Of a DNA stretch of 40,216 nucleotides, positions 3,309-35,636 are shown one piece after another. Position numbers and translations under genes: made by a program. A model generated the notes under the pieces. The model was not told the DNA's origin. It saw nothing but the letters and a program-made list of their open reading frames with translations, and did not search any database. The DNA lies in IMG/VR virus record IMGVR_UViG_2579779009_000004; one strand, given 5' to 3'. This DNA is from a virus. Taxonomy: Duplodnaviria; Heunggongvirae; Uroviricota; Caudoviricetes. The first letter of the stretch is position 1, and the number at the start of each line of letters is the position of its first letter.

Positions 3309-3884
3309 CTACGGCAGTGCTGGCCATTCAATATCCTGTGCAGTTGACGTATCAACACGGTTCAGCAACACCCGATACTTTTTCCAGGCTTCCAGCAATG
3401 AGGTTTCTTCCTCCGTTGCGATTTCCAGATCTACAGCATCCTGAAGTGGCGCAATATGCTCACTGGCTACCTGCATCAGGCTGTTTTTTGTTTCTTCCGC
3501 CTCTCGGATCCGGAACAGTTTTTCTGCTTCTGCATCTTTCACCCAGGCTGTGCCGTTCCACTTCTGAAACTCCCCTTCCGGCGATAACCAGGTAACATTT
3601 TCCGGTAACGGACCGAGTTCAGAAATAAACAACGCGTCCCCTGACGCTACGTCATAAACCGTTTTACCCCGATGGTCTTCATCGAGATGCCACGATGCCT
3701 TATCACTGTTGAAAACAGCCACAAAGCCAGCAGGAATATCTGGTGGTGCAATATCGGTACTGTTTGCTGGCAGACCTGTATGAGGCGGAATATATGCGTC
3801 ACCTTCACCAATAAATTCATTAGTTCCGGCCAGCAGATTATAAATTTTTATGGTCCGTGGTTGTTCACTCATTCTGAATGCCAT
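3309..3884 (-). CDS. tfa: tail fibre assembly protein (Tfa)
   Basis: 191-aa ORF immediately downstream of stf; the stf stop and tfa start overlap (TAATG at 3882-3886); typical Tfa size and position. Confidence 0.85.
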
Positions 3885-20042: not shown

Positions 20043-22001
20043 TTACGCCGTACATTTCACCAGACCGCGGTGATCAACTGGCGCGACACCGGCGTCAATA
20101 CGCACTTTCGTTGTCACGCCATCCACACTGAAGCCCTCCATCTGATCAATATATGGCGTATCCACACCGTTGAGATAAGCCACTTCAATCGTATCGGAGC
20201 CTTTTGACGCAGCCAGGTAGAAGGTGGTCTGGCTGTTATCATCAAGACGAGGCTCTGCAATAACGGTCGCAAAATCTTTCACCGGGTTAATAATACCGGC
20301 GTTAATGTCAGCCCCCTTGACACTTGAGGAGCGAATGACCTGGTTAGCAACAGACTCCATCGCCGTCGGTACCAGTACGAACGCAGGACGAATATTCAGA
20401 TGACGCTCCCCCTCTTTCTGAACGCGCATCAACTGGCGGGCTTTATCCAGCGATGCCACGTCCATTGCAGCGCTCTCCAGTACGTTTGCATGTTTCGCTT
20501 TATCGAACAGACTTACATTATCTGTGGAGATTTTCGGGTTAGACGTCAGAATGGCATAAACCAGATCGGCAATAGTGGATTTCGCCGCACGGCCCAGTTT
20601 CATCGGGACATCGGTCAGCATATTCAGATCATCATTGATAATGGCCTGACGGGTGATACTGAACAGCTCGCCATAGGTCGCCAGTGCAATAGTGGCCTGT
20701 TTATCTCCGGTGGTGACGTATTTATATTCCGCCCCTTCACGCACCTGACGCAGAGCACTGAAGCCCCCCATACCCACACGATGGGCAATTTTAAAATCAG
20801 ACAACTGACCTTTCCGCGTCCACTGTTCATAGGTTTCAGGGGCATCTTCCCAGCCCTGCAGAATGGCTTTGTTCGCAACATCCAGCAGAATATTACCGAA
20901 GTCAGACGTACTGTGTGTGAACGCCGCACCGACCATCTGCATCGGGTTATAACCGGAAACCCCAATACCCCGTTCAGTTAGTGACATACGGGCATATTCA
21001 CGCAGGGTCATCCCGTTGTAGACATTATCACGTTCGGTTTTTTCAAATCCGGCACGCGCCATCAGCGCCTGGCGGATCCCGTCCCCCACAAAATTACCGT
21101 TACCGGCATAAATATGAGCCGGGGTATTTTTATTGGATGGCGTGGACTCGCGCCCCATCTCGTTCAACAGCTTTTCACGGGCCTGCTCCAGCGAACATTC
21201 AGGATCGGCAAGACACTGGGCCTGCAGCATCTGATAACGCCCGCCAAACATGGCAAACAGATCATTAATACCGTTTACACGCGCTTTTTGCTCTGCCAGT
21301 ACCTGCGCACGGATACTGTTTTCATCCACCACGGGTGCTGCTGCCTGCACTGGCGTCCGGGAGGCTGCAGGTTCATCATCCTGTACGCGTGGAGCACTGT
21401 TGCGTGGCGGAGTAATCATGTTTCGAATGGATTCCGGCATCTTTTTAAATTCCTCTGTACGTTTTGACTGAATACATGCCATTGCCTTAACGGCTGGTGT
21501 CACCTGATCAGCAAATCCCTGTGCCAGACATTCGGCACCGGACATCCAGGTCTCATCCGCCAGCATGGCAGCAATTTCATCGGTGGTTTTCCCGGTTTTC
21601 TGTGCATAAGCGGGTAACAGAACCGCCTCAACTTTATCGAGCAGGTCGGCATAGGTGCGCATGTCCTCCGCATCACCGCCCGTAAAGCCAAATGGTTTAT
21701 GAATCATCATGAAGGAGTTTTCCGGCATAATGACCGGGTTTCCCACCATCGCAATGACCGACGCCATTGACGCCGCCACACCGTCGACATAAACGGTAAT
21801 GGACGCACCATGTGTTTTCAGTGCATTAAAAATGGCGATGCCTTCAAAGACATCGCCACCCGGTGAATTAATATGGAGATTAATGTGGGTGATATCGCCC
21901 AGTGCATTCAGATCACTGATAAACTGCTTCGCTGTAACACCCCAGAAACCAATCTCGTCATAAATATAAATATCCGCGTCACTCTGGTGACCTGCCTGCA
22001 T
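20043..22001 (-). CDS. fused prohead protease (ClpP/S49-like), scaffold-like linker and major capsid protein
   Basis: About 652 aa starting MQAGHQSDADIYIYDEIGFWGV...; N-terminal ClpP-like serine protease region, a charged coiled linker, then a roughly 350-aa capsid-like region. Start placed at the first ATG after the portal stop; the ORF-track extension overlapping portal is rejected. Confidence 0.85.
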   Translation of the reverse strand: MQAGHQSDADIYIYDEIGFWGVTAKQFISDLNALGDITHINLHINSPGGDVFEGIAIFNALKTHGASITVYVDGVAASMASVIAMVGNPVIMPENSFMMIHKPFGFTGGDAEDMRTYADLLDKVEAVLLPAYAQKTGKTTDEIAAMLADETWMSGAECLAQGFADQVTPAVKAMACIQSKRTEEFKKMPESIRNMITPPRNSAPRVQDDEPAASRTPVQAAAPVVDENSIRAQVLAEQKARVNGINDLFAMFGGRYQMLQAQCLADPECSLEQAREKLLNEMGRESTPSNKNTPAHIYAGNGNFVGDGIRQALMARAGFEKTERDNVYNGMTLREYARMSLTERGIGVSGYNPMQMVGAAFTHSTSDFGNILLDVANKAILQGWEDAPETYEQWTRKGQLSDFKIAHRVGMGGFSALRQVREGAEYKYVTTGDKQATIALATYGELFSITRQAIINDDLNMLTDVPMKLGRAAKSTIADLVYAILTSNPKISTDNVSLFDKAKHANVLESAAMDVASLDKARQLMRVQKEGERHLNIRPAFVLVPTAMESVANQVIRSSSVKGADINAGIINPVKDFATVIAEPRLDDNSQTTFYLAASKGSDTIEVAYLNGVDTPYIDQMEGFSVDGVTTKVRIDAGVAPVDHRGLVKCTA

Positions 22002-22014
22002 CCTGAACCAGGAA

Positions 22015-23523
22015 TTATTCTTCGGACTGGTCGTCGGTGTGCTGCGGCTCCTGTCGTTTCGTTGCGGCACTGCTGCCTCCTTTATCACTGGCCGGATCGG
22101 TATCAAATACCAGATCCAGCTTGCGGTTTTCATCAATTTCGGCCTTGCGCCGACGTTTGACATCATCCGGATTACGACCACCTGCACGTACCCAGTCTGA
22201 TTCTGTCGCCGCTCCACCACGAATCTGAATTTTCCAGGCCTCAGCCTCCTTAACAGGGTCAATCCACGGCATCACCGGTCCGGAATACACCGCGGTATAC
22301 AGTGAAGATCGGTCCAGATCGCGGGGTAGCCTGATAACACCGGATGCCACAGCCTGTTTCAGCCAGGCACGGTACATCGGGCGGGTGACGGCACCAATAA
22401 ACCAGTCCTGCAGGATCAGGTAGCCATCAGTAGATTCAACCAGCTCCTGACGCTGGGCGCTGTAAGTGCCGTTATAGTTGCGCGCTGTACTGGAAAAACT
22501 CAGACGACTGCCCGCAGCCACGGCACGCAACTGACCATTACGAAAAGTTTCAAGGTTAGGATTGGGGCGATCCGACTTCACCATTCCGATTTCTTCGCCG
22601 GGTTTCAGATCGTCGTAAATAATGCCTGGCTGAATGGTAAGCTCGCGTTCATTCTCCTTGCTGTCATTACCATCCGTTTCATAGCTCTGTCCGTCGCCTT
22701 TCCGGATGTACATCCCCAGAGCAGCGGCGATCCTTGCTGCAGTCAGCTCAGAATCTTCATACTCTTTCAGAGCACTGAGGCGGATCAGCACACCGGACAA
22801 CAAAGACGTCCCGCGCATCTGGTGCAGACGGCGAACAAATTTAAGATGCAGCATTCGCTCTGCATCCACTTCTTTGGTTTCCATCTGCCGCCCGGATACG
22901 GGACGGCTTTTATACACCAGATATTTTTCGGGACGCCCCCAGTCATCAACAAACACGCCCTGATTCAGCCTGTTGCTCTCATCACTGGTCATGGGAATAA
23001 AGTCCGGCTCGAGCGCCTCCAGCCAGAAATGAACACCGGCAGAAGGCGTCAAGCTGTTTATGCGCCCGGAAACCATCTGGGCAAACACCTCACCATCGCG
23101 CAGCCAGGTACGCAGCATCAGACGTTCCAGCATCGGACGGGTAAACTGCCCGGTGACTTCCGGACTGACAGACCATTCACTCCATCGGGTGCGTATCTCC
23201 GCTGCCAGATCACGGGCAATGGCCCCATTGCGTAATACCGGATGTGGCTCGACAATAATCCCGTTTTTCCCCACCACCCGTTCTTCCAGCTTGTCAAATA
23301 CACCAATGACCAGATCGTGGTTGTTATCAAGGTAACGGGCCTGCTCACGTAACGACACGGCCCCGTACTGGCTTAACTGGTCGGCAGTTCGGTTCTCCCG
23401 TCGGGCTTTGTGTGTCCGCGTCGTTTTTACGGCCTCATAAGCCTGAATCACCGCACGGGAACGCAGCCTTGCCGCTTTCCATCCTGGTGAAAAAACGCCA
23501 ATCACATCATCAAGAATTGCCAT
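22015..23523 (-). CDS. portal protein
   Basis: About 502 aa from MAILDDVIGVFSPGW...; lies between W and the protease/capsid gene; its start overlaps the W stop (TGATG at 23521-23525). Confidence 0.9.
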   Translation of the reverse strand: MAILDDVIGVFSPGWKAARLRSRAVIQAYEAVKTTRTHKARRENRTADQLSQYGAVSLREQARYLDNNHDLVIGVFDKLEERVVGKNGIIVEPHPVLRNGAIARDLAAEIRTRWSEWSVSPEVTGQFTRPMLERLMLRTWLRDGEVFAQMVSGRINSLTPSAGVHFWLEALEPDFIPMTSDESNRLNQGVFVDDWGRPEKYLVYKSRPVSGRQMETKEVDAERMLHLKFVRRLHQMRGTSLLSGVLIRLSALKEYEDSELTAARIAAALGMYIRKGDGQSYETDGNDSKENERELTIQPGIIYDDLKPGEEIGMVKSDRPNPNLETFRNGQLRAVAAGSRLSFSSTARNYNGTYSAQRQELVESTDGYLILQDWFIGAVTRPMYRAWLKQAVASGVIRLPRDLDRSSLYTAVYSGPVMPWIDPVKEAEAWKIQIRGGAATESDWVRAGGRNPDDVKRRRKAEIDENRKLDLVFDTDPASDKGGSSAATKRQEPQHTDDQSEE

Positions 23524-23735
23524 CAGAACCTCGCCAGCCGGTACCCGGGATGCCCCCGTCGTCGTGTAATCAGAGCCGCAAGGCGGCGCTCCCACTCCTG
23601 CCGTCCCTGCCGGATCTCAGATAAGTTTTCCATGGTCATCTGCTGACCATTAAAAGTGACGGATTTTCCGTCCAGCACCGCCATTTCAGCTTCCGTATAA
23701 CGCTGAATCATGGCTTCAATATCATTCTGATTCAT
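23523..23735 (-). CDS. W: head-tail joining protein W
   Basis: About 70 aa; C-terminus ...RRRGHPGYRLARF resembles lambda gpW (...RRRGPAGFYV); its start overlaps the terminase stop (ATGA); GGAGG precedes it. Confidence 0.8.
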   Translation of the reverse strand: MNQNDIEAMIQRYTEAEMAVLDGKSVTFNGQQMTMENLSEIRQGRQEWERRLAALITRRRGHPGYRLARF

Positions 23736-25831
23736 AACCATCCTCCGGAAGTCAGCCAGGGGTTAACATCGTCAGTTACTGTTTTCTTCCGTTTTTGTTT
23801 TTTAACAGGCGTGGATACCGGCTCCGGTGAGGGTGACGGTTCGGTACTGTCCGGGACACACTCCAGCCAGGTTTCCCGGCTCGCCCACTCCGGTGCATCC
23901 GGCCAGCGGATCTTTTCGTATCCATGCAGAATGACCAGCGCCTCGGCATACACCATCAGGTCAAAAGCTTCGTTGGCACCGCGACCCGGCTTACTCCATT
24001 TCCCGTCACTGCTCCGCTCTTCATACGTCAGTTCGTCGTAAAACCAGCTCCCCAGCCAGTCAGGGAAATGCACATAGCCTGGACCTGGCGAGTCACGCCA
24101 TAACGCGTTATTCACCCGGTCTTTCAGGGCATCCGTCTGAAGAAGCCAGAGCGGCACATCACCTGCGGCCTGCGCCCGGCGGCCCGTTCGTCCGGTGTTA
24201 TCAGGGAATGTACGGCTGATCAGTTTTGCGCGCCGGATGCTGTCGCCCTTAAACAGGTAAATACGTTTACCAAGGCCATCACGACGGCAACGACGCCAGA
24301 ATTTATAGGCATTATCAGTGACCCCGTCTTCACCGCCGGAATCCACCGCCATTGCCATCAGTCGCATTTGTTGAGAAGGATCGGAGGCCAGCGGCCAGCT
24401 TTTATGAAAAACATCCGTCAGCAGGACATCCCAGTCTTCCGGATAGCTGGCCGGATCAATTCGCTGGCTCTCCCCGTCGCAGTCACTGCGCAATGACTGC
24501 GTGATGTTGTAACGATCAATAATCCAGCGTTCGCCACGGCTGCCATAGCCCGTTACCTGAACCACAAAACGGCGATGACGTCCCGCCTGCACATCCACTG
24601 TCGCCACAAGGAAATTAACGCCATCCGGAACACTGCGGGAAGGAACTGGCTCTGCCCGCTGCTCAAGCAGTTCACTTTTTCGTTGCTCCATGCTGGCACG
24701 AGGAAGATAAGGCAATCCCCAGTCGGTGTTGATAACCGCCCTGAGTGTTTCTTCGCTTCCTGTCGCTTCATACTCCTGTTCTGCAGTCAGTAATTTGTAA
24801 ACCAGTTGCGCCCAGGTCTGATACGCAGCAGCTGGCCCTTCCATCCAGAAACTGGCGATACGGGAGCGGCGCGGTTCACCGGAAACGTTGCCGTTACGAT
24901 CAATGACCTGACCTTCACGTAACCAGACTCCTGCACTATTGAGCTCACGCTTTTTCTCCGCAGTGATAATGCCGCTGCAGTGCGGGCAAAGTAGATACGC
25001 CGCCTCACTGGCTTTAAAGGGATCCGGTTCATTACGGTAGCCGGTCATGGCATCCATAGCTGGCTGAAAATATTCACCGCAGTGCGGACATGGCCAGTAC
25101 CAGCGGCGGCGGTCACCACGATTGTAAAGGGAAAGAATACCAGTCGTCGGTGGCGCTTCATGAGGCGACTTACGTCGCCATTTGCTGTCGCAGATGTCAC
25201 GTCCCGGCGAGCTCTCCACCAGAGTCATCCCGGCGGACATAAATGTGGTGGTACGTTTTGAGGCCAGGGAGAAACCATCACCCTCGCTGTCGATATTCTC
25301 CGGAAAACGGTCGTAATCGGTTAAGGCGACAAACCGGTAATCCGACGACGACATAATGTTGACCGAGGGCCAACCAATTTTAAGGAACGAGCCATCCCTG
25401 AACGTCTTATCATGGACATTATTGTCGTTACGACGTGGACTCATTCTTTTCTTTACCGCCGCACTGCTTCTGAACGTTCTGTCGAGGCGCTTTTTAGAAT
25501 GCTCGCGGGCCTTATCTTCGGTCATCTGCACAACGAGCATGTCCGAAGGATCGCAAACGATGGTATAGACAATCCATCCATCGATCAGACCAATGGTCTT
25601 CCCTGTTCGCGCAGGACCAACAAAAATCACCGCATCGTATTCACGCGATGCCAGGCAGTTCATGGGCTCAATGATGTAGGGTGTCAGTTCAGGATCCCAT
25701 GGCACCGAGTTACCAGCCCCCTTGGGAACACGCATGAATTTTTTAACAGCCTCCGAAATCGGCATGCGACGTGGTGGGGAAAATCCTGCCGATATGTCCC
25801 TTCCCAAATTTCGGGCTGATGAAAAACCCAT
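23732..25831 (-). CDS. terminase large subunit (GpA family)
   Basis: 699 aa; Walker A VGPARTGKT and a C-terminal nuclease-like region with Cys/His-rich motifs (CPHCGEYF...CPHCSG); AGGAGG Shine-Dalgarno; follows terS. Confidence 0.95.
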   Translation of the reverse strand: MGFSSARNLGRDISAGFSPPRRMPISEAVKKFMRVPKGAGNSVPWDPELTPYIIEPMNCLASREYDAVIFVGPARTGKTIGLIDGWIVYTIVCDPSDMLVVQMTEDKAREHSKKRLDRTFRSSAAVKKRMSPRRNDNNVHDKTFRDGSFLKIGWPSVNIMSSSDYRFVALTDYDRFPENIDSEGDGFSLASKRTTTFMSAGMTLVESSPGRDICDSKWRRKSPHEAPPTTGILSLYNRGDRRRWYWPCPHCGEYFQPAMDAMTGYRNEPDPFKASEAAYLLCPHCSGIITAEKKRELNSAGVWLREGQVIDRNGNVSGEPRRSRIASFWMEGPAAAYQTWAQLVYKLLTAEQEYEATGSEETLRAVINTDWGLPYLPRASMEQRKSELLEQRAEPVPSRSVPDGVNFLVATVDVQAGRHRRFVVQVTGYGSRGERWIIDRYNITQSLRSDCDGESQRIDPASYPEDWDVLLTDVFHKSWPLASDPSQQMRLMAMAVDSGGEDGVTDNAYKFWRRCRRDGLGKRIYLFKGDSIRRAKLISRTFPDNTGRTGRRAQAAGDVPLWLLQTDALKDRVNNALWRDSPGPGYVHFPDWLGSWFYDELTYEERSSDGKWSKPGRGANEAFDLMVYAEALVILHGYEKIRWPDAPEWASRETWLECVPDSTEPSPSPEPVSTPVKKQKRKKTVTDDVNPWLTSGGWL

Positions 25832-25839
25832 TATTCCTC

Positions 25840-26367
25840 CTAGAGACTCTCTCCTTCCTCATCAGGAATTAATTCAGCAGCACAAGCCTCGTAGGATTTT
25901 TCCTGAAGAGTGTATCGCAGGTCATCAATGGCCTGCTGTACAACGCCGACGGCCTGAGGAGTCAGGGCGCAATCGCGTTCAAGAACATCCGGAATTGTCT
26001 CCAGAACCTGGACGACAGCCTTTCTCATGGACGAATAGACGATGACTACTTCATCAACTGGGATGAGTTTTCGCTGCTCCTTTTCCAGCTTGATCCTTTC
26101 ATTTTCAGACTGGTACCAGTCTTTTCTCTCTTTCGGCTCCATACGGGATGGATCATGAACAGAGTCTGCTGCCTCATGCTTCACACTAAACAGGGCGGGC
26201 CCGACATGCTGCAGGGCGTAAACGGGGTTCCCCCTGACAGTCGCAGCCACAGGAGTGTTGGCCGCGAGGAGCCGTTTTTTTACTGTGTCCCGGTGAAGCC
26301 CAAAGGCCTCGGCGATTTTAAAAACACTCCAGTAATAAGCATCACCGATCCCGCTCACATTTGACAT
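25840..26367 (-). CDS. terminase small subunit (Nu1-like, HTH)
   Basis: About 175 aa from MSNVSGIGDAYYWSVFKIAEAFGLHRDTVKKRL (HTH-like) with GGAG 6 nt upstream; immediately upstream of terL and about 180 bp from the cosN-like sequence. Confidence 0.8.
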   Translation of the reverse strand: MSNVSGIGDAYYWSVFKIAEAFGLHRDTVKKRLLAANTPVAATVRGNPVYALQHVGPALFSVKHEAADSVHDPSRMEPKERKDWYQSENERIKLEKEQRKLIPVDEVVIVYSSMRKAVVQVLETIPDVLERDCALTPQAVGVVQQAIDDLRYTLQEKSYEACAAELIPDEEGESL

Positions 26368-26545
26368 AAGCAACTCCATCTGGCAGGTGAAAATCAGGTT
26401 TATTTATATATTTCAATTAATTGCAAACTGGTCTAATGACAGGGAGAAAAAATATTGTACAGGTGAAAAGAGAAATAACTTTTAATTATCAATAAATTAC
26501 CAAACATGCTGCCGCCGCCATGGAAATGCAAAAACTAGTCTTTTT

Positions 26546-26568
26546 CCGCGACGCTCCCGCCCCGTGGC
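26546..26568 (-). other. candidate cosN cohesive-end site
   Basis: Minus strand reads 5'-ACGGGGCGGGAGCGTCGCGG-3'; lambda cosN as I recall it is ACGGGGCGGCGACCTCGCGG (flanks identical, central six bases differ). It is about 180 bp upstream of terS, as cosN is of Nu1 in lambda. Confidence 0.5.
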
Positions 26569-26591
26569 AGGGGCCCCCACCGGGAGGACCC

Positions 26592-26614
26592 GACAGCCTG
26601 ACAGCCTGACAGCC
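26592..26614. repeat. tandem octamer repeat (GACAGCCT, about 2.9 copies) next to the cos candidate
   Basis: gacagcct gacagcct gacagcc read directly from the sequence. Confidence 0.7.
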
Positions 26615-26750
26615 GTGATGAGCATCTGATACAGCGCTTTACATAATGGCATAGGAATAATTCAGAAGGACATCACAGCATGCCCACACAAATTAGTGTG
26701 AGTGTCCTGTTTCTTCCTACGCACAGGACTGACGAGCATGAGGGGAAAAT

Positions 26751-26918
26751 ATGCGAACCATAAATGCCTCATCTTCAGCAATGCAACAGGCATCCGAACA
26801 GGACGATATTGTAAATTCACCTAATTACGAGGACATTGCAGTAGTTGAATTGCAGCTCTGTATTAGCCTGACAGTGACAGAATGCGATATTGACTCTGTC
26901 ACAGGTGAAATAGTTTGA
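26751..26918 (+). CDS. candidate small acidic protein (55 aa)
   Basis: ATG at 26751 with GAGGGG 5 nt upstream, TGA at 26916; MRTINASSSAMQQASEQDDIVNSPNYEDIAVVELQLC...; no homology known to me. Confidence 0.25.
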   Translation: MRTINASSSAMQQASEQDDIVNSPNYEDIAVVELQLCISLTVTECDIDSVTGEIV

Positions 26919-28647: not shown

Positions 28648-28854
28648 CTTCATTTTCACTTTTTTAAATCCAACGACAGACGGCTGGCATTTAAGTATTG
28701 TGAAATATTATCAAATGTAATCATCATTGATTTACAAAAGATACATTTTGCCCCGAAAGGATTCATGTCAGAAACATCAAAAGATGATGTTCTATACTGG
28801 GAACCATGACAACACGGGCATCTAAAGTGAATATGGTTTGTAATATTGTCTACC

Positions 28855-29067
28855 TCAAAGCGCCACTACATGAACAGCGGCAGGACCTTTAGGTCCGTTC
28901 TCAATACCAAATTCAACTTCCTGATTCTCAGTTAATGTTTTGAAATCGTTGCTCTGAATTGCTGAGAAATGGACAAACACATCTTTGCTGCCATCTTTCG
29001 GCGTGATGAAACCAAAACCTTTTTCAGGGTTAAACCATTTCACTAAACCAGTCATTTTGTTAGACAT
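28855..29067 (-). CDS. cspI: cold-shock protein (CspA family)
   Basis: [70 protein letters not shown], a full cold-shock domain with RNP1/RNP2 motifs; position matches cspI of Qin. Confidence 0.9.
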
Positions 29068-29429
29068 AATTATTACCTTTTGAAGAAATTAGCCCTTGGG
29101 CAGAATGGTCCGAAAAAAAATATCAGAGAGAAAAACCAACAAGGAAATCTCAAGAGGTACAAATAATAAAATTATAACAATGACTGCTTCAGATAAATTT
29201 GTAACAAACCAGAACACCATTAACGCATGATTAACCACCCATAGCAAGGATTACTTTTGTAAAGAAAAACACAGCAATGAAAGAATAGCTTTATTTATTA
29301 ATAAAACGTGTCATTCTGATTAAGACCTTTTATCTTACCCTTAAGATTTCAGGAATTTTGGCTCATGGAAGAGTCCTTTTTATTTAAATTTTACATTCCG
29401 CGATGTAAATGTTCCGATTTAATATTACC

Positions 29430-31456: not shown

Positions 31457-31739
31457 TTGAGATTGTGGTGCTTTTTGTGGGAGTCATCCACTTACGCACT
31501 TTGTTTTGCGATGCCAGCAGTTAGCTTCTGCTGTGAAACTATTCATGCAGCAAACCTGCACTTCACCACAATGGTTAGCATACTTTTCCTGATTAAGATT
31601 TTGCCAAATATACTAGCCATTGTTTCATGTATTGGACCTCCTTACTTTTTATTAAAGAGATCCAATATTCACTACTCTGTCCGTATCTCTACTCAGGCAT
31701 CAGCCTTCTTCGTTATCGTATACAGACGAGCGATGAATT

Positions 31740-31955
31740 TTAATCAGTAATGATGACATTTGCTGCTGCAGGACCTTTAGCACCACTCTCTATAGAGAAG
31801 GTAACCTTTTGACCTTCAAATAAGGTTCGATAATTATCATTCTGAATCGCAGAAAAATGCACAAACACATCTTTACTACCATCAACAGGAGAAATAAAGC
31901 CGAAACCTTTATCAGCGTTAAACCATTTTACTAAACCAGTCATTTTATTTGACAT
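31740..31955 (-). CDS. cspB: cold-shock protein (CspA family)
   Basis: [71 protein letters not shown]; a paralogue of the cspI copy at 28855..29067. Confidence 0.9.
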
Positions 31956-32253
31956 TCTACATTCCTTAACTTGAGCCTTTCGGCATAAATGGTTTGCATA
32001 ACAGAAACGACTTCGTACTTAATTGGAGAGACTCAAAGAAGGAATAAGTGAATAACACCTGAAATGAGAACTGCTTTAGTAAACTACTTCGTATATCGTC
32101 TGTTCTTCAAACCGACGCAGTCATTAACTCATAGTTGAACATATGAAGCAATGTTTATTTTAGACATCCAGCCACCTTCAATCCTATCAAAAAAGTAGTT
32201 TTCTCCAGGAACGTGTGTATGGTGCACCAGGTTATCAGTATTAAGGAGTTTTT

Positions 32254-35260: not shown

Positions 35261-35416
35261 TTACTCCTCAGGTTCGTAAGCTGTGAAGACAGCGACCTCC
35301 GTCTGGCCGGTTCGGATTCGTACCTCGCAGAGGTCTTTCCTCGTTACCAGTGCCGTCACTATGACGGTTAAACAGATGACGATCAGGGCGATTAACATCG
35401 CCTTTTGCTGCTTCAT
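35261..35416 (-). CDS. hokD: Hok-family type I toxin (HokD/RelF)
   Basis: MKQQKAMLIALIVICLTVIVTALVTRKDLCEVRIRTGQTEVAVFTAYEPEE, 51 aa, Hok signature; the ORF-track extension upstream is rejected. Confidence 0.9.
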   Translation of the reverse strand: MKQQKAMLIALIVICLTVIVTALVTRKDLCEVRIRTGQTEVAVFTAYEPEE

Positions 35417-35636
35417 AGCCTGCTTCTCCTTGCCTTTCGGCACGTAAGAGGCTAACCTACATATGTCTAGCATGAAATTGGCCTCAGATTAATGTTAAGC
35501 GTCTTGCAGGACGCGTAATGTTAACTGGGGCTTTTCTCTATCTGCCGTTGGTGTTCATGCCCGAGGCAGATAGCCTCAAGCACCCGCAGCCATTCTACTT
35601 AACTACTGAAGTGGTCAACAAAAACTGGCCACCGAG

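What the first reader, a model, noticed from the sequence alone, without database searches (positions are those of the whole stretch)
26540..26620. cosN-like sequence with altered central bases, implying a different 12-nt cohesive end
The minus strand reads ACGGGGCGGGAGCGTCGCGG about 180 bp upstream of the Nu1-like gene, mirroring the lambda geometry. If nicking is positioned as in lambda, the cohesive end would be GGGCGGGAGCGT rather than the lambda/21/80/82-type GGGCGGCGACCT. An adjacent GACAGCCT tandem repeat (26592-26614) could be a terminase-binding or cosQ-like element, or incidental.
Basis: partly seen in the sequence, partly recalled or inferred. Interest (0 to 1): 0.45.

Follow-up and report, generated by a model that had tools for sequence, protein, structure and literature searches.

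The report
Prophage cos site, known cosN variant
This is the DNA-packaging cut site (cos) of a common Tritos/cdtI-like lambdoid prophage of E. coli; its predicted sticky end GGGCGGGAGCGT differs from lambda's at four bases, and this kind of variation is already recorded in public phage genomes and described in the literature, so it is real but ordinary.

Summary
The minus strand at 26546-26565 reads ACGGGGCGGGAGCGTCGCGG, 184 bp upstream of the small-terminase gene.

It is the cosN of a complete lambda-style cos:
- cosQ heptamer GGGTCCT (26585-26591), 22 nt before the nick (23 nt in lambda);
- conserved CG flanks and left half GGGCGG;
- the only perfect IHF consensus in the window (26487-26499);
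- repeated TTTTCACCTG motifs as candidate TerS sites;
- terS, a gpA-family terL, portal and a ClpP-capsid fusion gene downstream.

Two GenBank/ENA phage genomes (cdtI, Tritos) begin with GGGCGGGAGCGT and end ...CCACG. Part or all of the 261-bp cos matches 2,037 of 5,426 complete E. coli genomes, and it is 100% identical in ATCC 25922.

The Feiss laboratory has reported that bp 7-12 of cosN vary naturally while cosQ and bp 1-6 are conserved. Gifsy-1's end, GGGCGGCAGCGT, differs from this one at a single base.

- The small terminase is Pfam DUF1441, only a remote relative of Nu1.
- The GACAGCCT repeat is not cosQ. It is absent from plaque-forming relatives that have the same cosQ and cosN.

The physical ends were not mapped here. 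Verdict: already known, low interest.

The parts
26585..26591 (-). cosQ-like heptamer GGGTCCT (packaging-termination signal), 22 nt upstream of the top-strand nick
   Evidence: Identical to lambda bp 48473-48479, which lie 23 nt before the nick. Invariant in the alignment of five phages and present upstream of most cosN sites in the IMG/VR sample. cosQ is described as highly conserved in PMC4669245.
26549..26564 (-). cosN: the 12-bp cohesive-end sequence GGGCGGGAGCGT (26551-26562) plus the CG dinucleotide on each side. Inferred nicks lie between 26563 and 26562 on the minus strand and between 26550 and 26551 on the plus strand.
   Evidence: The cdtI and Tritos records start at the base equivalent to 26562 and end at the base equivalent to 26563. 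The nick positions are inferred by homology and were not measured.
26529..26548 (-). Conserved segment next to cosN (CGGAAAAAGACTAGTTTTTG, bp 15-34), in the position of lambda's I2 spacer
   Evidence: Almost invariant across three different TerS/cosB types and across DUF1441-type loci (AAAACGGCTAGTTTT). Also recognisable in the cyanophage Cr-LKS3. The role of I2 in termination comes from PMC4669245.
26501..26513 (-). Candidate R3-like TerS site (GCAGCATGTTTGG, bp 50-62)
   Evidence: Occupies the position of lambda R3 (bp 50-65, PMC9026076). Relatives with TerS 53-64% identical have GCAGCAGGTG here. The segment differs between TerS types. Inferred, weak.
26487..26499 (+). IHF consensus TATCAATAAATTA (I1-like), bp 64-76 from the nick
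   Evidence: The only perfect WATCAANNNNTTR match in the 40-kb window; 1.64 are expected over the whole window. An ATTGAT core at this position is invariant across three cosB types and in L053 and L081.
26460..26469 (-). Candidate R2-like site TTTTCACCTG (bp 94-103)
   Evidence: An exact 10-mer direct repeat of the copy at 26384-26393. L029 has TTTCAGGTGACAA at the same position. Inferred.
26384..26393 (-). Candidate R1-like site TTTTCACCTG (bp 170-179), just upstream of the terS start
   Evidence: TCACCTG sits at exactly bp 173 in the window, L053 and L029 (TerS 53-58% identical), while the surrounding sequence has diverged. Inferred.
25840..26379 (-). terS, small terminase subunit (179 aa; alternative start at 26367)
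   Evidence: Pfam DUF1441, E 1.7e-44. PHROG 141 'terminase small subunit', E 3.8e-65. 100% identical to the annotated TerS of cdtI and Tritos. hhalign against a Nu1 profile: probability 84%, E 7e-6, collinear.
23732..25831 (-). terL, large terminase subunit of the gpA family (ATPase plus endonuclease)
   Evidence: Pfam GpA_ATPase E 4.9e-81 and GpA_nuclease E 1.8e-86. 24% identity to lambda gpA, E 5e-22.
26592..26614 (+). GACAGCCT x2.9 tandem repeat directly upstream of cosQ; judged incidental
   Evidence: TRF. One unit fewer in HannyBb, PhiR40_1 and mEp460; absent in cdtI and in plaque-forming phi458, which have the same cosQ and cosN.

Best explanation
The region 26384-26591 (minus strand) is the cos site of a Tritos/cdtI-like lambdoid prophage that carries a Gifsy-2/mEp213-type head and packaging module.

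Proposed mechanism. During lytic growth, the small terminase (DUF1441 family, with an N-terminal helix-turn-helix) binds cosB, the stretch between cosN and terS. IHF assists by bending the DNA at bp 64-76. This positions the gpA-family large terminase on cosN, which it nicks on both strands 12 bp apart, next to the conserved CG dinucleotides. The left chromosome end then carries the 5' overhang GGGCGGGAGCGT and the right end carries its complement, ACGCTCCCGCCC. DNA is packaged towards terS, that is, towards lower window coordinates. Packaging ends at the next cos, where cosQ (GGGTCCT) and cosN are needed.

[quoted passage not shown] The GACAGCCT repeat plays no required part.

What is shown: the sequence elements, their spacing, their conservation, the gene families, and the starts and ends of the deposited records. 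What is inferred: the exact nick positions, the identity of the TerS-binding sites, and IHF binding.
For: - Sequence and chance: (the composite cosQ-spacer-cosN pattern is unique; 0 of 100 shuffles match).
- Lambda comparison. cosQ is identical, the spacing is 22 versus 23 nt, the flanks ACG and CGCGG are identical, and 8 of 12 overhang bases are identical.
- Record termini: cdtI and Tritos begin GGGCGGGAGCGT and end CCACG. Tritos makes virions and plaques (PMC9928086).
- Gene context: DUF1441 TerS, gpA-family TerL, lambda-family portal and a ClpP-capsid fusion, with the lysis cassette upstream.
- Conservation: cosQ-cosN-I2 is invariant across three cosB/TerS types. 19 of 124 IMG/VR sites carry the same GAGCG centre, and 17 of those 19 are followed by a DUF1441 TerS.
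- Prevalence: 2,037 of 5,426 E. coli genomes match at least part of the 261-bp cos, and 871 match at least 80% of it.
- cosB: a single IHF consensus at bp 64-76; TCACCTG at bp 173 is conserved in diverged relatives.
- Literature: natural variation of bp 7-12 with conserved cosQ and conserved flanks (PMC4669245); GGGCGGCGCGCT inferred for mEp213/LLS, which have the same head type (PMC12315714; record feature). Gifsy-1 has GGGCGGCAGCGT.
- A distant family member, Cr-LKS3, is reported to have 5' cohesive ends starting GGGC, followed by the same CGCGG...GGCAGTTTTT flank (PMC9303873).
Against: - No terminus mapping was available for this phage or for any phage with this exact cosN. The papers I could read do not say that the cdtI or Tritos ends were determined experimentally (searches failed).
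- TerL is only 24% identical to lambda gpA, so identical nick placement cannot be assumed.
- Within the DUF1441 family, the spacing between the conserved flanks is not fixed: 9 nt in Cr-LKS3, about 10 in CP-1639, about 14 in Gifsy-2.
- The R-site assignments rest on short motifs. The R3-like segment in the window (GCAGCATGTT) matches its relatives' GCAGCAGGTG only imperfectly.
Confidence: 0.85

Rival explanations
1. It is the cos site, but the nicks are not placed as in lambda. The overhang would then have a different length or register (for example 9-10 nt, or shifted), and the true cohesive end would not be GGGCGGGAGCGT.
For: TerL is only 24% identical to lambda gpA. In the same TerS family, Cr-LKS3 is reported to have a 9-nt overhang, and the spacing between the flanks varies from 9 to 14 nt. 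I found no experimental mapping for this cos type.
Against: Here the spacing between the conserved ACG and CGCGG flanks is exactly 12, as in lambda. In Cr-LKS3 the reported end also fills exactly the interval between those flanks, which suggests the nicks follow the flanks. Two depositors placed the genome ends at these positions. Feiss-lab papers treat this group as having 12-nt lambda-like ends.
Confidence: 0.1
2. The GACAGCCT tandem repeat is a functional part of cos, either an extra terminase-binding site or a cosQ-like termination element.
For: It directly abuts cosQ. One to three units occur at that position in several relatives.
Against: The copy number varies: 2.9 here and in Tritos, one unit fewer in HannyBb, PhiR40_1 and mEp460. 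The repeat is absent in cdtI and phi458, which share the same cosQ, spacer and cosN. phi458 forms plaques. Where the repeat is absent, the sequence resembles lambda's own upstream sequence. The conserved lambda cosQ heptamer is present separately.
Confidence: 0.04
3. The match is a fossil or a coincidence: the prophage is defective, or it packages from another site, and this sequence has no current function.
For: Many E. coli lambdoid prophages are defective. The RefSeq annotation marks nothing in this interval.
Against: The chance expectation is negligible. The site sits in the canonical position between the lysis genes and an intact terS-terL-portal-capsid operon. Near-identical phages (Tritos, HannyBb) are propagated as phages. 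The core is strongly conserved across diverged relatives.
Confidence: 0.02

Closest known systems
Phage lambda cos (cosQ-cosN-cosB)
   Same: The cosQ heptamer GGGTCCT is identical. The nick flanks ACG and CGCGG are identical, as are bp 1-6, 10 and 12 of the overhang. An IHF site follows a segment in the R3 position. terS starts at about bp 190. TerL belongs to the gpA family.
   Different: Overhang bp 7, 8, 9 and 11 differ (GGGCGGGAGCGT versus GGGCGGCGACCT). The cosQ-to-nick spacing is 22 nt, not 23. The candidate R motifs are unrelated to lambda's. TerS is DUF1441, not Nu1. TerL is only 24% identical. 8 of the 16 cosN positions are rotationally symmetric, against 10 of 16 in lambda (my count from the sequences; the lambda figure is given in PMC9026076).
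Phage cdtI (AB285204) and phage Tritos (OV696610, E. coli LF82 prophage 3)
   Same: The same cosN, cosB and TerS (TerS 100% identical; DNA 98-99% identical). Both records begin with GGGCGGGAGCGT.
   Different: cdtI lacks the GACAGCCT repeat and has a different sequence upstream of cosQ. The window is 100% identical to the prophage in E. coli ATCC 25922 over the cos region.
Salmonella phage Gifsy-1 cosN (GGGCGGCAGCGT)
   Same: 11 of 12 overhang bases are shared, with the same AGCGT right half. cosQ is GGGTCCT. It is cited by Feiss as a natural variant at bp 8, 9 and 11.
   Different: Bp 7 is C in Gifsy-1 and G here. Gifsy-1 has a Nu1-type TerS and lambda/21-type head genes, and its right flank is CGCAGG.
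mEp213 / mEp043 / LLS cos (GGGCGGCGCGCT) with Gifsy-2-type head module
   Same: The same TerS family (DUF1441, about 41% identity), the same fused ClpP-capsid head type, and the same cosQ, flanks and GGCTAGTTTTT segment.
   Different: The overhang right half (CGCGCT versus GAGCGT) and cosB are different. terS starts nearer to the nick, at about bp 130. TerL is about 77-78% identical.

Membership tests
Lambda-type cos site (12-nt 5' cohesive ends; 'lambda-like phages' in the sense of Feiss, PMC4669245) | cosN with the conserved left half GGGCGG and a conserved CG dinucleotide flanking each nick, 12 bp apart | tested here: met
   ACG|GGGCGGGAGCGT|CGCGG at 26546-26565, minus strand; lambda comparison.
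Lambda-type cos site (12-nt 5' cohesive ends; 'lambda-like phages' in the sense of Feiss, PMC4669245) | The 7-bp cosQ GGGTCCT a fixed short distance upstream of cosN | tested here: met
   GGGTCCT at 26585-26591, 22 nt before the nick; 23 nt in lambda.
Lambda-type cos site (12-nt 5' cohesive ends; 'lambda-like phages' in the sense of Feiss, PMC4669245) | cosB between cosN and terS: repeated TerS-binding R sequences with an IHF site between R3 and R2 | tested here: inconclusive
   The IHF consensus is present at bp 64-76 and is unique in the window. TTTTCACCTG occurs twice, and its position is conserved in relatives. The R3 equivalent is degenerate, the orientation of R2 differs from lambda's scheme, and no binding data exist.
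Lambda-type cos site (12-nt 5' cohesive ends; 'lambda-like phages' in the sense of Feiss, PMC4669245) | A gpA-family large terminase encoded just downstream | tested here: met
   Pfam GpA_ATPase and GpA_nuclease; 24% identity to lambda gpA, E 5e-22.
Lambda-type cos site (12-nt 5' cohesive ends; 'lambda-like phages' in the sense of Feiss, PMC4669245) | Virion DNA physically carries complementary 12-nt 5' overhangs with this sequence | not testable with these tools
   No read data or virion DNA were available. There is only indirect support from the cdtI and Tritos record termini.
Pfam Phage_Nu1 (PF07471) small terminase | A match to the Phage_Nu1 profile above its gathering score | tested here: not met
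   There is no Phage_Nu1 hit even at E <= 1, whereas lambda Nu1 scores 333 bits in the same search. BLASTP finds nothing. Remote collinear similarity appears only with hhalign (probability 84%).
DUF1441-type small terminase / Gifsy-2-mEp213-LLS-type packaging and head module | DUF1441 TerS followed by a gpA-family TerL, a lambda-family portal and a fused ClpP protease-major capsid protein | tested here: met
   Pfam hits, PHROG 141, the RefSeq annotation of the identical ATCC 25922 prophage, and homologues in Gifsy-2, mEp213, LLS and VT1-Sakai.

The most novel reading that the evidence does not exclude
The right half of cosN may not be simply neutral. It could define cohesive-end 'compatibility groups' that travel with the TerL clade. 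In the sample here, the GAGCG centre goes with TerL 75-100% identical to the window's (mostly above 80%), while TerS/cosB is swapped freely (42-100% identical). Other centres go with TerL 67-80% identical. If the centre were selected, for example to stop chromosomes that start at one resident prophage's cos and end at another's from re-circularising, then cohesive-end diversity in poly-lysogenic E. coli would be an isolation mechanism between co-resident lambdoid prophages.
Probability: 0.1. Interest if true: 0.45.

Novelty: already known. Interest (0 to 1): 0.12.

Why it matters
It matters little beyond correct annotation. Knowing the cos position and the likely 12-nt ends helps to orient and delimit genomes of this very common E. 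coli prophage type (ATCC 25922, LF82 Tritos, the cdtI phage), to interpret virome read pile-ups, and to predict which satellites or co-resident prophages could be packaged by its terminase. It also illustrates a published rule: cosQ, the left half of cosN and the nick flanks stay fixed even when the terminase proteins have diverged to 24% identity or less, while bp 7-12 drift.

Tried and rejected
- The exact 12-mer in the literature returned only an unrelated mammalian promoter paper.
- Vahanian et al. 2017 (the cosN survey) and Asakura et al. 2007 (the cdtI phage) could not be read by PubMed id, DOI or PMC id. I therefore could not check whether GGGCGGGAGCGT is listed in the survey, or whether the cdtI ends were mapped.
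- The Tritos, phi458 and Ayreon papers contain no end-mapping.
- The first genome-contig scan used a spacer one N too long and found nothing. The repeat with the plain 20-mer found 7 loci. Four have the cos context (E. coli, E. ruysiae and two MAG contigs that are probably mis-binned). Three are chance matches without that context (a Treponema MAG and high-GC Sphingomonas and Streptomyces contigs).
- A PDB sequence search with TerS gave only noise. BLASTP of TerS against Nu1 gave nothing.
- The repeat finder did not report the 10-mer direct repeat; I found it by exact matching.
- I considered and rejected the idea that Nu1-type phages always have the CGACC centre. That result is biased by the search pattern, and Gifsy-1 (Nu1-type TerS, CAGCG centre, CGCAGG flank) is a counter-example.
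- The promoter/terminator scan of the region was uninformative.

Full report
**Observation**

The string is unique in the window even when 3 mismatches are allowed, and none of 100 dinucleotide-preserving shuffles contains it. The GACAGCCT tandem repeat is also real: 26592-26614, 2.9 copies. Lambda's own ends, fetched for comparison, read ...GGGTCCT(23 nt, ending in ACG)|GGGCGGCGACCT|CGCGG.... The window therefore differs from lambda at overhang bp 7, 8, 9 and 11. It keeps bp 1-6, 10 and 12 and both nick flanks.

**Anatomy**

Reading the minus strand, and numbering from the first base of the predicted left end (bp 1 = window 26562), the elements are:
- The lambda cosQ heptamer GGGTCCT at 26585-26591, 22 nt before the nick (23 nt in lambda).
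- cosN at 26549-26564.
- A conserved segment CGGAAAAAGACTAGTTTTTG at bp 15-34.
- A variable segment at bp ~40-62, where lambda's R3 lies.
- A perfect IHF consensus, TATCAATAAATTA, at bp 64-76. It is the only such match in the 40-kb window, where 1.64 are expected overall.
- Two exact copies of TTTTCACCTG, at bp 94-103 and 170-179.
- The small-terminase start at bp 184 (second ATG at bp 196), against bp 191 in lambda.

The composite cosQ-spacer-cosN pattern occurs once in the window and in none of 100 shuffles.

Downstream on the same strand lie terS (Pfam DUF1441; PHROG 141 'terminase small subunit'), a gpA-family terL, a gpW-like adaptor, a lambda-family portal and a ClpP-major-capsid fusion. 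Upstream lie a Q-type antiterminator, the lysis cassette and several csp/gns morons. RefSeq annotates nothing in the cos gap.

**Identity of the element**

- Over the cos region, the window is 100% identical to a prophage of E. coli ATCC 25922. At least part of the 261-bp cos matches 2,037 of 5,426 complete E. coli genomes, and 871 genomes match at least 80% of it.
- In the phage collection it is 94-99% identical to HannyBb, Tritos (prophage 3 of E. coli LF82) and phage cdtI. Their TerS proteins are 100% identical to the window's.
- The cdtI record (AB285204) and the linear Tritos record (OV696610) both begin with GGGCGGGAGCGT and end with ...CCACG.
- Tritos is reported to form virions and plaques (PMC9928086).
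- I could not establish that either set of ends was mapped experimentally. The Tritos paper says nothing about cos, and the cdtI paper is not held.

**Comparative evidence**

I scanned IMG/VR with ACGGGGCGG-N5-TCGCGG.
- The lambda centre CGACC accounts for 64 sites, and 57 of them are followed by a Nu1-type TerS.
- Every locus with a DUF1441-type TerS has a different centre. GAGCG, the window's centre, is the commonest: 19 sites, 17 of them followed by a DUF1441 TerS. The others include CGCGC (9), CGGAC (5), CTGGC (3) and CGAAC (3).
- The pattern fixed the flanks and bp 12, so these counts are biased. Gifsy-1 is a counter-example to any strict rule: it has a Nu1-type TerS, GGGCGGCAGCGT and a CGCAGG flank.

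An alignment of the window with HannyBb, PhiR40_1, phi458 and mEp460 shows an almost invariant block from cosQ through cosN to GGCTAGTTTTTG (mEp460 alone has G instead of T at bp 12). Divergence begins at the R3 position, an invariant ATTGAT core follows at the IHF position, and the sequences then diverge again. This is the pattern expected if cosQ, cosN and I2 are shared while cosB is specific to each TerS.

Relatives whose TerS is 53-64% identical keep GCAGCAGGTG at bp ~50-59. L053 and L029 also keep TCACCTG at exactly bp 173, and L053 has an IHF match at bp 64, although the intervening sequence has changed. This gives moderate support to the R3-I1-R2-R1 assignment.

The cosN centre follows the TerL lineage: GAGCG loci have TerL 75-100% identical to the window's (mostly above 80%), and other centres have 67-80%. 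It does not follow the TerS lineage, which ranges from 42% to 100% identity within the GAGCG loci.

Among species-representative genomes, the exact 20-mer in its cos context occurs only in E. coli, E. ruysiae and two MAG contigs that look mis-binned.

**The terminase proteins**

TerL is only 24% identical to lambda gpA (E 5e-22). TerS has no BLASTP similarity to Nu1 and no Phage_Nu1 Pfam hit. A profile-profile comparison of 12 DUF1441 TerS sequences against 11 Nu1 homologues gives 84% probability (E 7e-6) over 128 collinear columns, starting at the N-terminal helix-turn-helix. 'Nu1-like' is therefore fair as a functional and remote-homology description, but the protein is not a member of the Nu1 family as Pfam defines it.

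**The GACAGCCT repeat**

The repeat directly abuts cosQ, but it is not cosQ. There are 2.9 copies here and in Tritos, one unit fewer in HannyBb, PhiR40_1 and mEp460, and none in cdtI and phi458. In those two phages the sequence upstream of cosQ instead resembles lambda's. phi458 forms plaques (PMC9701743). The repeat is therefore dispensable, and most likely a slippage-prone polymorphism.

**What is already known**

- Feiss et al. 2015 (PMC4669245) define the lambda-like phages by their 12-nt 5' ends. They state that differences at bp 7-12 are common (N15 at bp 9 and 12; Gifsy-1 at bp 8, 9 and 11), that such changes do not measurably affect cos cleavage, and that cosQ, the left half of cosN and the CG flanks are conserved.
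- A dedicated survey exists (Vahanian et al. 2017, Virology 509:140; cited). I could not read it.
- The LLS paper infers GGGCGGCGCGCT for LLS and mEp213, which share this head and TerS type (PMC12315714). The LLS record annotates that end.
- I confirmed Gifsy-1's GGGCGGCAGCGT directly. It is one base (bp 7) from the window's end.
- The cyanophage Cr-LKS3, a distant DUF1441-TerS phage, is reported to have 5' cohesive ends of 9 nt (GGGCTCGCG) (PMC9303873). Its record continues with CGCGGAAGTCGGCAGTTTTT, the same right flank as here. This suggests that the nicks follow the conserved flanks.

**Mechanism and confidence**

The best explanation is a standard lambda-type packaging site. TerS and IHF assemble on cosB. 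The gpA-family TerL nicks cosN 12 bp apart and produces the 5' overhangs GGGCGGGAGCGT and ACGCTCCCGCCC. Packaging proceeds towards terS and terminates at the next cosQ-cosN.

I am about 95% confident that this is the functional cos. I am about 85% confident in the full account, including the exact 12-nt ends. The main residual doubt is the absence of physical end mapping, together with the variable flank spacing (9-14 nt) in more distant family members.

**Verdict**

The finding is real and its central interpretation is correct. However, the sequence already sits at the termini of public phage records, and the phenomenon is described in the literature. Novelty: already known. Interest: low.

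Noticed in passing
L024:3760-4700 (also L018 and L047): Three IMG/VR contigs each carry two lambda-type cosQ-cosN sites in inverted orientation, 520-865 bp apart. In L024 and L047 the sites flank a single Nu1-like gene (184 aa in L024, 33-35% identical to Nu1), and in L024 no terL follows it. This may be a satellite- or PICI-like packaging cassette.
   Followed up: partly
L081 (IMG/VR), the cos region found: This cos has DUF1441-type flanks (cosQ variant AGGTACT, AAAACGGCTAGTTTTT), an R3-like GCAGCAGGTG and an IHF match, but the lambda CGACC centre and no recognisable TerS downstream. It may be a satellite that exploits this terminase type.
   Followed up: no
L130 (CP-1639), L134 (Gifsy-2), L136 (Cr-LKS3), L127 (mEp460), L131 (mEp460_4F5): The spacing between the conserved ACG and CGCGG nick flanks varies within the DUF1441-TerS family: 9 nt in Cr-LKS3, about 10 in CP-1639, 12 in most, and about 14 in Gifsy-2. 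mEp460 has G instead of T at bp 12. The mEp460_4F5 record lacks 3 nt inside cosN, possibly an assembly artefact at the physical ends.
   Followed up: partly
IMG/VR loci (for example L029, L049, L050, L063, L124): A subset of DUF1441-type cos sites has AGGTACT in place of the cosQ heptamer GGGTCCT, at the same distance from cosN. The Feiss papers describe natural variation in cosQ as not apparent.
   Followed up: no
window 26902-26911 (minus strand): A third copy of the candidate TerS-site motif (TTTCACCTGTGACAG) lies about 340 bp upstream of the nick, at the 3' end of the small conserved ORF 26751-26918 (+, phrog_4035). Three of the six TTCACCTG occurrences in the window (both strands) lie within 530 bp of one another on the same strand.
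   Followed up: no
window 26497-26652 (minus strand): A 51-aa ORF spans cosN. Its equivalents are annotated as hypothetical proteins in the HannyBb and mEp460 records. It has no family hit and would be cut in virion DNA, so it is probably a spurious gene call.
   Followed up: partly
window 3343-3541, 28828-29213, 31724-32116, 35411-35585 (all minus strand): Rfam hits above the gathering score: IS009 sRNA, two cspA thermoregulator leaders (upstream of the prophage cspI and cspB morons) and the sok antitoxin RNA of the hokD locus.
   Followed up: no
window 20043-22262 versus 22015-23595 (minus strand): The longest ORF for the ClpP-capsid fusion (739 aa, TTG start) overlaps the 3' end of the portal gene by about 250 nt. 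RefSeq annotates a shorter product (2,028 nt) in the identical ATCC 25922 prophage, so the true start is probably internal.
   Followed up: no
IMG/VR and genome loci compared: The cosN centre co-segregates with the TerL clade and not with the TerS/cosB type. This is consistent with the cosB plus TerS DNA-binding module being exchanged as a cassette, independently of cosQ-cosN and TerL.
   Followed up: partly
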